From: a virus
Taxonomy: Duplodnaviria > Heunggongvirae > Uroviricota > Caudoviricetes
Virus record (IMG/VR): IMGVR_UViG_2778261064_000024
Reading direction: 5' to 3' (one strand)
DNA length: 16,631 nucleotides
Positions 12,001-15,000 of this stretch are shown here, one piece after another. The stretch's first letter is position 1, and each line of letters begins with the position of its first letter. A program made the position numbers.

Positions 12001-15000
12001 TCCTCCCTAAGACTGAGTTTTTTGGGAAAACGAAATACGCATCAAAAATCGAAGAGATTTCTGGTGGCAAATATCAAGCAAGCGAAATGCTTGAAATAAG
12101 CAAAAAGAACCTTCTGGCTGCATAAGTAACACCGCTATTTTCACAATGGACATTCGTCCTACGTCGCTGACAAAGCGAGCCCCAAGATATCTGACCAACT
12201 AAGGCCATATGCGTTTCCACGCATACCTTTCAACTAGCTATTCACTATTGGAAATCTTAAGAAATGGAACAAACAAGTTACAGCAAACTGTCACAGCGCG
12301 ATATCGATCGCGCTGAAACGGATTTACTTATCAACCTGTCAGCTCTGACGCAAAGGGGACTGGCGAAGATGATTGGCTGTCATGAATCGAAGGTCAGTCG
12401 TACCGACTGGCGATACATCGCGGCTATTTTATGCGCGTTTCAGATGGCATCTGATATCAGTCCGATCAGCCGGGCTTTCCAGCATGCCATTAACGTTCAT
12501 GCAAATAAAAAACGTCCGGTTGGGGCCGGACGTTCTGAGCAAATCCTGATGAATATCTGATATTCAGGCAGGGCATGGAGCAATACACGGGAATAATTCT
12601 GCCACATCTGGAAGAATTTCGCCAGCAACAACACCAACCGCAGCAGCCTGAAGCCGATTGGGTTAACCCGGAGATACCGGGACCGTCTGTGAAGATGTGC
12701 AGTCACACCAATGTGCAGTCACACCAACCGCAGCAGCCTGAAGCCGATTGGGTTAACCCGGGAGATACCGGGACCGTCTGCGGTATGGAGTAAATCTTGT
12801 ATGCGAGGGGACTATGCGTAATTACGCAACAATTTCACCTCAGTTCTGGTTAGGCGATACAGGGCGAAAACTCAGGAAGTCTGGTCCGGAATGTATGGTA
12901 GTGGCGTTGTATATGATGACCTCGCCTCATTCCAATATGCTGGGCCTTTATTACCTGCCTGTTTTGTACATTGCTCACGAAACCGGACTTGATCCTGAAG
13001 GGGCTTCTAAGGGGCTTCAAATGGCTTGCGAGGCTGGTTTTTGCAGCTATGACCATGATTCTGAGGTTGTATGGGTGCATGAAATGGCAGCATGGCAGGT
13101 TGGTGAATCGCTGAAACCTGGCGATAACCGTTGTGCTGGGGTAAGAAATGAATATTCCGCGTTGCTGGAAAATCCTTTTTTATCATCCTTTTATGATAGA
13201 TATAAGGATGATTTCCACCTGGATGTCAGACGTGAATCATGTCGGAAAATTGAAGCCCCTTCAGAGCCCCTTTCAAGCCAAGAACAGGAACAGGAACAGG
13301 AACAAGAACAGGAAAGGGATAAAACCCTTCTGGTCCATGGCGAAAAAATCGCCACGGACCCACAGGGGGATTTTTGTCCTGTTCTGACTGAACGTCCAGG
13401 ACCAGCTGGCACGACACCGGAAGCAGATTCCGGGCGTTGTGTGCAGCAGGTGCTGATCGTCGAACCGGAGCAACAACGCCAACCGCAGCAGCCTGAAGCC
13501 GATTCCGCGATGAGCGGGAAGCCGATTGGGTTAACCCGGGCGATGCCGGGACCGTCTGCGGTATGGAGTAAATCTTGTATGCGAGGGGACTATGCGTAAT
13601 TACGCAACAATTTCACCTCAGTTCTGGTTAGGCGATACAGGGCGAAAACTCAGGAAGTCTGGTCCGGAATGTATGGTAGTGGCGTTGTATATGATGACCT
13701 CGCCTCATTCCAATATGCTGGGCCTTTATTACCTGCCTGTTTTGTACATTGCTCACGAAACCGGACTTGATCCTGAAGGGGCTTCTAAGGGGCTTCAAAT
13801 GGCTTGCGAGGCTGGTTTTTGCAGCTATGACCATGATTCTGAGGTTGTATGGGTGCATGAAATGGCAGCATGGCAGGTTGGTGAATCGCTGAAACCTGGC
13901 GATAACCGTTGTGCTGGGGTAAGAAATGAATATTCCGCGTTGCTGGAAAATCCTTTTTTATCATCCTTTTATGATAGATATAAGGATGATTTCCACCTGG
14001 ATGTCAGACGTGAATCATGTCGGAAAATTGAAGCCCCTTCAGAGCCCCTTTCAAGCCAAGAACAGGAACAGGAACAGGAACAAGAACAGGAAAGGGATAA
14101 AACCCTTCTGGTCCATGGCGAAAAAATCGCCACGGACCCACAGGGGGATTTTTGTCCTGTTCTGACTGAACGTCCAGGACCAGCTGGCACGACACCGGAA
14201 GCAGATTCCGGGCGTTGTGTGCAGCAGGTGCTGATCGTCGAACCGGAGCAACAACGCCAACCGCAGCAGCCTGAAGCCGATTCCGCGATGAGCGGGAAGC
14301 CGATTGGGTTAACCCGGGCGATGCCGGGACCGTCTGCGGGACGAGTTGATTATCCTGACGTGTTCGAACGGGTCTGGCGTGAATATCCGCATCGGGCAGG
14401 GTCAAACCCGAAGAAATCCGCGTTCAATGCCTGGAGGGCCAGATTACGCGAAGGGGTGTCACCGGATGTCGTGCTGGATGGCGTGAGGCGTTACGCAAGA
14501 TACCTGGAGGCTACCGGGAAAGCGGGAACTGAATTTGTTCAGCAGGCATCGACGTTTTTTGGCCCGAACAGGAATTTCGAAAATCCGTGGTCGCTGCCGA
14601 AGGCTGGCGCAGTCAGCCTGCGTTGCGTGAATCACATTTCTGAACCGGACACCGAAATTCCGCCGGGTTTCAGGGGGTAATCAGCCATGAAAAACATTTC
14701 GACAGGAGGGATTCTTGAACGGGTGCGCCGTCTGGCACCACCGCACGTGGCAGCACCGTTCCGGACGACCGACGAATGGCGGGAATGGCAACTGGCTGAG
14801 GGCCGTAAGCGCAGCGAGGAAATTAACCGCCTGAATCATCAGGCGCGGGTTGAAAAAATCCTGAACCGTGCGGGCATCCAGCCGCTTCACAGGAAGTGCT
14901 CATTCGGGAACTACCGGGTGCAGAACGACGGTCAGCGCCATGCTCTGAGCCAGGCGAAATCCATTGCCGATGAATTGATGACCGGTTATACAAACTTCGT

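What the first reader, a model, noticed from the sequence alone, without database searches (positions are those of the whole stretch)
12784..14339. Perfect 778-bp tandem duplication inside the replication initiator gene
Two identical 778-bp units sit head-to-tail. The first yields a truncated 261-aa N-terminal fragment; the second gives the full-length 362-aa DnaT-like initiator. The junction falls within a 16-nt identity (CCGGGACCGTCTGCGG) shared by the upstream repeat and an internal repeat, consistent with unequal recombination or replication slippage between iteron-like repeats. It is either an assembly artefact or a recent duplication that also duplicates candidate origin repeats and would express a stand-alone N-terminal domain.
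Basis: seen in the sequence. Interest (0 to 1): 0.7.

Follow-up and report, generated by a model that had tools for sequence, protein, structure and literature searches.

The report
Private tandem duplication in prophage initiator
A lambda-like prophage of E. coli carries a perfect, head-to-tail 778-bp duplication of the front half of its replication-initiator gene. It is a very recent short-homology rearrangement or an assembly error, seen in no related genome, and is an ordinary kind of mutation, although it copies the phage's whole predicted replication origin.

Summary
Positions 12768-13561 equal 13546-14339 base for base: two 778-bp units plus a 16-nt CCGGGACCGTCTGCGG at both ends and at the junction. 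With one unit removed, the window is identical across about 16 kb to prophages in other E. coli. Every relative examined has one unit, and the junction sequence was found nowhere else.

Each unit holds the ribosome-binding site, a winged-helix N-domain, a disordered linker and the predicted origin. That origin is two plus two AAGGGGCT repeats at 11-nt spacing around an AT-rich hairpin, an arrangement conserved in homologous genes across bacterial phyla.

The breakpoints lie in two copies of a repeat "R". The upstream R copies are not iterons. They are copy-number-variable derivatives of the linker-coding sequence, so this spacer is a rearrangement hot-spot.

"DnaT-like" holds only for the last ~25 residues.

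Predicted outcome: a 261-aa DNA-binding fragment that cannot recruit the helicase loader, followed by an intact 362-aa initiator, with two origins. This should be silent in the lysogen and easily lost by recombination.

My estimate is about 0.6 for a real recent duplication and about 0.3 for an assembly artefact. Interest is low to moderate.

The parts
12264..12560 (+). cII gene, upstream neighbour. Its stop marks the start of the length-polymorphic spacer.
   Evidence: Pfam Phage_CII, E 3.8e-26.
12575..12793 (+). 72-aa small ORF (PHROG 2751) that contains the upstream R copies. Its C-terminal part changes frame and length between relatives (41-76 aa), so only the first ~28 codons are conserved.
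12624..12692 (+). Upstream repeat R1, short form with a 1-nt deletion.
   Evidence: (families D3, D4).
12695..12726 (+). 16-nt tandem repeat ATGTGCAGTCACACCA, two copies (one copy in L009 and L010).
12714..12783 (+). Upstream repeat R2 (the 'A' copy). Its last 16 nt (12768-12783) form the left recombination site.
12784..13561 (+). Duplicated unit, copy 1: leader and RBS, start codon, N-domain, predicted origin, linker, internal R.
13562..14339 (+). Duplicated unit, copy 2, identical to copy 1.
12814..13599 (+). ORF1, 261 aa: initiator residues 1-249 plus the tail VWSKSCMRGDYA. Its stop TAA (13597-13599) lies 3 nt after the ATG of ORF2.
13592..14680 (+). ORF2, the intact 362-aa initiator. Its coding DNA is identical to the gene for WP_105268566.1 in ES5.
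12998..13018 (+). Iteron cluster 1 (AAGGGGCTTC twice, 11-nt spacing), encoding EGASKGL. The copy in unit 2 is at 13776-13796.
13182..13212 (.). AT-rich hairpin (ATCATCCTT...AAGGATGAT) in the lowest-GC stretch of the unit (GC 0.33). The copy in unit 2 is at 13960-13990.
   Evidence: (I1).
13252..13272 (-). Iteron cluster 2 (AAGGGGCT twice on the minus strand, 11-nt spacing). The copy in unit 2 is at 14030-14050.
   Evidence: (I2-I5).
13279..13314 (+). (GAACAG)n microsatellite encoding QEQEQE. Its length varies between relatives, giving initiators of 358-364 aa. The copy in unit 2 is at 14057-14092.
13469..13561 (+). Internal R, long form (the 'B' copy), encoding the end of the linker. Its last 16 nt (13546-13561) form the junction.
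14247..14339 (+). Internal R of copy 2, followed by the C-domain codons.
14340..14680 (+). C-terminal helical domain (aa 252-338) plus the DnaT-like tail (aa 338-362). Present only once.
14687..15427 (+). DnaC-like helicase loader, the presumed partner of the C-domain.

Best explanation
This is most likely a real and very young tandem duplication in the replication module of a lambdoid E. coli prophage. It arose by unequal exchange between sister or replicating molecules, or by a replication template switch, inside a 16-nt identity. That identity is shared by two paralogous copies of repeat R. One copy ends 30 nt before the initiator's start codon; the other ends at codon 249, the last codon of the disordered linker. 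Shown: each 778-bp unit carries the RBS and start codon, the N-domain and the linker. Inferred: each unit also carries the complete origin, made of two direct and two inverted AAGGGGCT iterons at 11-nt spacing around an AT-rich hairpin. Predicted consequences: the pR transcript would give a 261-aa protein with the DNA-binding domain and linker but without the helicase-loader-recruiting C-domain. This is followed, through an overlapping stop/start (ATGCGTAA), by the intact 362-aa initiator. The phage would have two origins 778 bp apart. In the lysogen the operon is repressed, so the change is silent. On induction the fragment should compete for iterons and act as a partial dominant-negative. 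The 778-bp perfect repeats should collapse back to one unit by homologous recombination.
Against: No reads, coverage or long-read data are available. The duplication is known from this single sequence. The junction and the 261-aa product are absent from every collection searched. That absence fits a young private event and fits an artefact equally well. Iteron binding, origin function and the dominant-negative effect are all inferred and untested. The AF2 model has moderate confidence (mean pLDDT 58.7).
Confidence: 0.6

Rival explanations
1. Assembly or finishing artefact. The genome has one unit, and the assembler threaded a loop twice. This could happen if a minority of molecules or chimeric reads carried the junction, or if a second prophage with a long-form R directly before the leader supplied the junction k-mers.
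For: The duplication is seen only here. The copies are perfectly identical. Natural spacers with a long-form R followed by the leader do exist (L002, L008), so a second prophage of that type could create a graph path from the linker end back to the gene start.
Against: Exact identity between the two breakpoint repeats is at most 23 nt, and 16 nt at the junction, which is too short to confuse assemblers at k of 31 or more. None of the 81 complete E. coli genomes with this module carries two such modules, and none has this exact junction. The rest of the window matches independent assemblies base for base, which argues for a high-quality sequence.
Confidence: 0.3
2. A selected, functional duplication. 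The stand-alone N-terminal fragment or the second origin is maintained because it benefits the host or prophage, for example by damping lethal replication after spontaneous induction or by excluding super-infecting phages with the same origin specificity.
For: Extra copies of lambda's oop-ori iteron region inhibit replication of rep-lambda phages (PMC3349717, abstract). The truncated ORF keeps its RBS and an intact DNA-binding domain.
Against: The operon lies downstream of cro and cII under a CI-type repressor, so it should be off in lysogens. No second lineage carries the duplication. There is no divergence between the copies. No stand-alone N-domain proteins with this tail exist in 5.8 billion protein clusters.
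Confidence: 0.07
3. The R repeats at the breakpoints are the phage's iterons or regulatory binding sites, so the event is an iteron-array expansion.
For: R contains a perfect 10-bp palindrome, GGGTTAACCC, found 4 times in the window against 0.26 expected. R copies lie next to the initiator gene. Upstream and internal copies share lineage-specific variants.
Against: R is absent from diverged homologues that keep the AAGGGGCT clusters (L005, L006 and other genera). Copy number is 1-3 with spacings of 90 or 113 nt, not helical phasing. The palindrome is broken in L011 and L012. The short form equals the long form minus 23 nt between two GAAGCCGATT repeats, so the upstream copies derive from coding sequence.
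Confidence: 0.1

Closest known systems
Tandem duplications formed by recombination between short homologies (for example the E. coli ampC amplifications and the Salmonella duplication literature; recalled from memory, not checked here)
   Same: Head-to-tail identical units. The novel junction lies inside a short identity (16 nt) that pre-exists at both endpoints. The single-unit allele is the population norm. Loss by homologous recombination is expected.
   Different: The short identity is part of a longer, 92%-identical paralogous repeat that was itself generated by earlier rearrangements of the same gene. The unit contains an origin and a gene start, so it yields a truncated and an intact product.
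Phage lambda O protein and ori-lambda (origin inside the initiator gene; N-terminal domain binds iterons, C-terminal part recruits the loader). Papers: PMC7466680, PMC3349717
   Same: Position after cII in a pR operon. A two-domain initiator with a flexible linker. Repeats plus an AT-rich stretch inside its own coding sequence. A helicase-loader gene immediately downstream.
   Different: No Pfam Phage_rep_O match. The repeats form two clusters about 240 bp apart in inverted orientation, not four tandem iterons. The partner is a DnaC-type AAA+ loader, not lambda P.
E. coli DnaT (primosomal protein I)
   Same: The last ~25 residues (VNHISEPDTEIPPGFRG) align with the DnaT C-terminus (PDB 2ru8, 6aep, 9zbt). 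A profile alignment weakly extends over the DnaT C-terminal domain (E 0.24). The gene is adjacent to a dnaC-like gene, as for dnaT-dnaC.
   Different: NCBIfam DnaT scores 15.6 bits against a cut-off of 201. There is no similarity to the DnaT N-domain. This protein has a winged-helix N-domain and a 110-residue linker.
PHROG 1701 'DnaD-like helicase loader' and phage replisome-organiser initiators (for example the phage Tritos replication protein)
   Same: Full-length match, E 1.1e-153. The C-domain is shared with Tritos at 82% DNA identity. Tritos has the same two clusters of repeats inside the gene.
   Different: Tritos has another N-domain and another repeat (GTCACG). No experimental work on this family was found in the papers searched.

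Membership tests
Short-homology tandem duplication | Two identical units arranged head to tail | tested here: met
   12784-13561 equals 13562-14339 exactly.
Short-homology tandem duplication | The junction lies in a short identity present at both ancestral endpoints | tested here: met
   The 16-mer occurs at 12768, 13546 and 14324, and flanking diagnostic bases place the exchange inside it. The single-unit allele in ES5 has the 16-mer at both endpoints.
Short-homology tandem duplication | The single-unit allele exists in relatives | tested here: met
   32 complete genomes, 8 draft loci and 80 IMG/VR loci.
Short-homology tandem duplication | Physical support for the junction and for two units (reads, PCR) | not testable with these tools
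   No reads or coverage data are available.
DnaT (primosomal protein I) | Whole-protein match to the NCBIfam equivalog NF002770 | tested here: not met
   15.6 bits against a cut-off of 201, covering residues 339-362 only.
DnaT (primosomal protein I) | C-terminal peptide SEPDxxIPPGFRG | tested here: met
   phmmer against PDB chains 2ru8, 6aep and 9zbt, E 0.009-0.027. The tail is conserved across the family alignment.
Lambda O-type initiator (Pfam Phage_rep_O) | Pfam Phage_rep_O N-terminal domain | tested here: not met
   No Pfam family at E of 0.01 or better.
Lambda O-type initiator (Pfam Phage_rep_O) | Origin repeats and an AT-rich tract inside the initiator gene | tested here: met
   AAGGGGCT clusters at 12998-13018 and 13252-13272 flank a stretch of GC 0.33. 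The layout is conserved in 39 loci. Function itself was not tested.
PHROG 1701 (DnaD-like helicase loader / replisome organiser) | Full-length profile match | tested here: met
   E 1.1e-153, residues 1-362 against profile positions 1-323 of 323.
Iterons (applied to AAGGGGCT) | Several copies in helical phase, conserved beyond what the protein sequence requires | tested here: met
   11-nt spacing. Cluster 2 occurs in either orientation (7 plus, 25 minus). Synonymous codons are fixed.
Iterons (applied to AAGGGGCT) | Bound by the cognate initiator and required for replication | not testable with these tools
   Needs EMSA or footprinting and an origin-function assay.
Iterons (applied to the R repeats at the breakpoints) | Conserved with the initiator across homologues, with regular phasing | tested here: not met
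   Absent from L005, L006 and other genera. Copy number is 1-3 with spacings of 90 or 113 nt. The palindrome is mutated in L011 and L012.

The most novel reading that the evidence does not exclude
The window may have caught the intermediate of a recurrent duplication-deletion cycle. In this cycle, exchange between the end of the initiator's linker and the gene's leader duplicates the whole 'origin plus DNA-binding domain' cassette. Later deletions then leave linker-derived R copies upstream. That would explain the 1-3-copy R array, its hybrid short and long forms, and the small overprinted ORFs (41-76 aa) whose C-termini differ by reading frame. The same hot-spot would allow origin and N-domain cassettes to be swapped between phages while the helicase-recruiting C-domain stays in place. 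The intermediate itself would be a two-origin phage with a built-in dominant-negative initiator fragment.
Probability: 0.25. Interest if true: 0.5.

Novelty: new member of a known kind. Interest (0 to 1): 0.3.

Why it matters
On its own this is one private, probably transient rearrangement in a prophage, or an assembly error to be fixed. Its value is as a pointer.

First, it marks a natural breakpoint at the boundary between the DNA-binding and helicase-recruiting halves of a widespread, uncharacterised initiator family that has no Pfam model. It also shows how repeats derived from the gene's own linker make the cII-initiator spacer a rearrangement hot-spot.

Second, following it up exposed a predicted origin embedded in the initiator's own coding sequence. 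Its 8-bp repeat is the same from E. coli prophages to Acidobacteriota and Planctomycetota MAGs. That gives directly testable predictions: binding of the N-domain to AAGGGGCTTC, a minimal origin at 12950-13300, and dominant-negative action of the 261-aa fragment.

Tried and rejected
- Pfam gave no hit for the initiator, the 261-aa fragment or the 72-aa ORF.
- Rfam gave only sub-threshold microRNA noise.
- The Stx-phage 'Eru' replication-module papers describe other module types and mention no DnaC, DnaT or iterons.
- A full-text search for the AAGGGGCT motif returned only unrelated primer sequences.
- The 253-aa 'partial' proteins (P0017, 82 members) looked like independent truncations, but they end in ...GRVDYPDV at contig ends and are not the duplication.
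- Exact searches for the junction in GTDB representative genomes, IMG/VR and JGI metagenomes found nothing. An exact look-up of the 261-aa product found nothing. The intact 362-aa protein is also missing from that collection, so this absence is weak evidence.
- Logan unitigs could not show the junction as a protein, because junction-specific sequence at k=31 would be only ~44 nt (my reasoning).
- The two-prophage mis-threading scenario was considered and down-weighted: none of 81 genomes has two such modules.

Full report
**Observation.** A shift of 778 nt gives one uninterrupted identity run from 12768 to 13561 (794 nt), and 12784-13561 is identical to 13562-14339 (family D1). The extra 16 nt is CCGGGACCGTCTGCGG, present at 12768, 13546 and 14324. 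The repeat copy upstream of the gene (12735-12783) and the internal copy (13513-13561) differ at four positions to the left of the 16-mer. The junction copy carries the internal type at all four, so the exchange lies within the 16 nt. ORF 12814-13599 gives 261 aa: residues 1-249 of the initiator plus VWSKSCMRGDYA. ORF 13592-14680 gives the full 362 aa. The stop of the first ORF (13597-13599) lies three bases after the ATG of the second.

**Context.** The window is the early region of a lambdoid E. coli prophage inserted next to ynfH/dmsD. In order it carries:
- integrase; exo, bet and gam; a RecE-family nuclease; kil; and an N-like antiterminator;
- a serine/threonine kinase;
- a CI-type repressor (11112-11819, minus strand), cro and cII (12264-12560);
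- a 72-aa ORF and the initiator;
- a DnaC-like loader (14687-15427), and DUF1627 and DUF977 genes.

**Relatives.** With one unit removed, the window shows no mismatch to E. coli ES5 between 12000 and 16106, and three mismatches plus one gap over 1-13561. It is identical over 7.2 kb to GCA_054591655.1 except for a 6-nt (GAACAG) indel. Every relative examined has a single unit:
- All 32 complete E. coli genomes that cover the region span 1783 nt or less, where the query is 2561 nt and 2561 minus 778 is 1783.
- Eight draft loci that encode the window's exact DUF1627 protein have one initiator of 358-364 aa.
- Eighty IMG/VR loci have no second N-domain within 3 kb.

The junction was searched for and not found:
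- It is not contiguous in any of 5,426 complete E. coli genomes.
- It has no exact match in GTDB representative genomes, IMG/VR or JGI metagenomes.
- The 261-aa product is not in the 15-billion-protein collection. The intact 362-aa protein is not there either, so this absence is weak evidence.
- No N-domain protein with the novel tail exists among 5.8 billion clusters.

The duplication is therefore private to this sequence and shows no divergence between its copies.

**The protein.**
- There is no Pfam match.
- PHROG 1701 ('DnaD-like helicase loader') matches full length at E 1.1e-153. Other PHROGs match only residues 1-190 or 158/209/250-362, which shows a modular protein.
- An AlphaFold2 model built on 30 homologues gives a folded N-domain (residues 7-135), a disordered stretch (140-251), a helical C-domain (252-338) and a disordered tail.
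- Only the last ~25 residues resemble DnaT (PDB 2ru8, 6aep, 9zbt; E about 0.01). NCBIfam DnaT scores 15.6 bits against a cut-off of 201.
- A family profile weakly extends the alignment over the DnaT C-terminal domain (E 0.24).

'DnaT-like initiator' is therefore true of the tail at most. The breakpoint (codon 249/250) falls exactly at the end of the disordered linker.

**The likely origin.** AAGGGGCTTC occurs twice at 12998-13018 on the plus strand with 11-nt spacing, and AAGGGGCT occurs twice at 13254-13272 on the minus strand. These clusters flank the lowest-GC stretch of the unit (GC 0.33), which holds a 9-bp-stem hairpin at 13182-13212.

The window has six matches against 0.94 expected. 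In 38 species-representative genomes from many phyla plus the window, the homologous gene shows the same layout:
- 26 of 39 loci have at least two plus-strand copies at nt +165..230.
- 32 of 39 have at least two copies at +380..520, in plus orientation in 7 loci and minus orientation in 25.
- The spacing is mostly 11 nt, and the background rate is 0.85 hits per kb.

Where cluster 2 is on the plus strand the peptide reads EGASKGL; where it is inverted, as here, it reads EAPSEPL. The DNA motif is therefore conserved rather than the peptide.

In cluster 1 the synonymous codons are fixed: GGG 30/32, GCT 26/31, GGG 25/28 and CTT 30/39. Usage elsewhere in the same genes is 25% for GGG, 16% for GCT and 11% for CTT. 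Phage Tritos has the same C-domain but another N-domain. It has the same two-cluster layout built from a different repeat, GTCACG.

I infer that these are the iterons of an origin inside the initiator gene, as in lambda. The whole origin lies inside the 778-bp unit. Binding and origin function are untested.

**The breakpoint repeats (R).**
- R occurs twice upstream (12624-12692 and 12714-12783, inside the 72-aa ORF) and once in the linker-coding region (13469-13561).
- The upstream short form equals the internal long form minus 23 nt lying between two GAAGCCGATT repeats. The upstream copies therefore derive from coding sequence.
- Among near-identical prophages the cII-initiator spacer is 176 nt (one short R), 197 (one long R), 251, 267 or 424 nt (three long R units of 113 nt).
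- The small ORF accordingly ends in different frames and lengths, 41-76 aa. Several variants end in ...PGPSAVWSKSCMRGDYA, the same frame and tail as the window's truncated ORF.
- In strain 23CRST047 the upstream and internal copies share a lineage-specific variant.
- R is missing from diverged homologues that keep the AAGGGGCT clusters.
- The family's linker also shows indels between EADS-coding repeats.

R is therefore a recombination substrate and a relic, not a conserved origin element. This spacer is a rearrangement hot-spot.

**Mechanism and consequences.** The most likely cause is unequal exchange, or a template switch, within the 16-nt identity. The prophage's own Exo/Bet or RecE-type functions may have helped; that step is an inference.

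The event leaves an intact gene preceded by a second RBS, N-domain, origin and linker. Because the operon follows cro and cII under a CI-type repressor, the change should be silent in the lysogen (inference from lambdoid architecture).

On induction the 261-aa fragment should bind iterons but lacks the C-domain and tail that presumably engage the DnaC-like loader. It is therefore predicted to be a partial dominant-negative. In lambda, extra copies of the oop-ori iteron region inhibit replication of rep-lambda phages (PMC3349717, abstract). Direct repeats of 778 bp are expected to collapse by homologous recombination (established knowledge, recalled from memory), which fits a very recent event.

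**Real or artefact?** This cannot be settled without reads.

For a real junction:
- The two R copies share at most 23 and 16 exact bases, too few to create a false loop at usual k-mer sizes, so junction reads must have existed.
- The rest of the window is base-perfect against independent assemblies.
- The same kind of junction has been fixed in other lineages.

For an artefact:
- The duplication is unique and the copies are perfectly identical.
- A second prophage with a long-form R in front of the leader could supply the junction. However, none of 81 complete genomes with this module has two such modules.

My estimates are 0.6 real, 0.3 artefact, and under 0.1 for a selected functional duplication.

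**Verdict.** The event is an ordinary class of mutation, a new instance of a known kind, and interest is about 0.3. The by-products may be worth more than the duplication itself. These are the phylum-spanning in-gene origin of a family without a Pfam model, and the DnaT-type tail that is kept even on a different C-domain (P0124).

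Noticed in passing
window 12998-13272 (and 13776-14050); loci L021-L063: The initiator's N-domain has no Pfam model, yet it occurs at 45-64% identity in prophage-like loci of Acinetobacter, Burkholderiales, Acidobacteriota, Planctomycetota, Elusimicrobia and other MAGs. Nearly all carry the same AAGGGGCT repeat in two clusters inside the gene. Cluster 1 lies in the codons for helix 61-73 of the winged-helix domain, so the protein's likely binding site is written in the coding sequence of its own DNA-binding domain.
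   Followed up: yes
window 14606-14680 (aa 338-362): The C-terminal peptide SEPDxxIP(P/S/F)GFRG is shared with host DnaT. It is kept even in family members with a different C-domain (for example P0124 from Salmonella). This suggests a portable docking peptide for a host or phage replication partner. The partner is unknown.
   Followed up: partly
window 12509-12536 (minus strand): A strong intrinsic-terminator-like hairpin (11 pairs plus a T-run) lies on the minus strand inside the 3' end of cII. This is the position of lambda's oop antisense RNA terminator. The promoter would lie in the conserved first ~50 nt of the 72-aa ORF region. No Rfam match was found.
   Followed up: partly
window 12575-12793 and loci L002, L008-L012: The annotated 72-aa 'hypothetical protein' (PHROG 2751, on more than 1000 contigs) has a conserved N-terminal ~28 residues. 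Its C-terminal part varies in frame and length in relatives (41, 46, 48, 51, 58, 72 and 76 aa) because of repeat indels. It may not be a real protein, or only its start may matter, for example for translational coupling to the initiator.
   Followed up: partly
window 13279-13314 / 14057-14092: The (GAACAG)n microsatellite encoding QEQEQE varies between otherwise identical prophages, giving initiators of 358, 360, 362 or 364 aa. Similar hexamer repeats follow cluster 2 in distant homologues.
   Followed up: partly
window 9140-10187 (minus strand): The prophage serine/threonine kinase gene is split into ORFs of 220 and 102 aa. It is intact (348 aa) in ES5. The same split is present in GCA_054591655.1, so it is probably a real allele and not a sequencing error.
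   Followed up: partly
window 1725-5558 (minus strand): The prophage carries lambda-type exo, bet and gam as well as a 690-aa RecE-family exonuclease. These are two recombination systems side by side, and both could promote short-homology exchanges like the one seen.
   Followed up: no
locus L006 (phage Tritos) 1537-1575 and 1797-1845: A replisome-organiser-type initiator shares the C-domain but has a different N-domain. It has two clusters of GTCACG repeats at 10-11-nt spacing, 260 nt apart, inside the gene. The two-cluster in-gene origin layout therefore appears general, with the repeat sequence tracking the N-domain type.
   Followed up: partly
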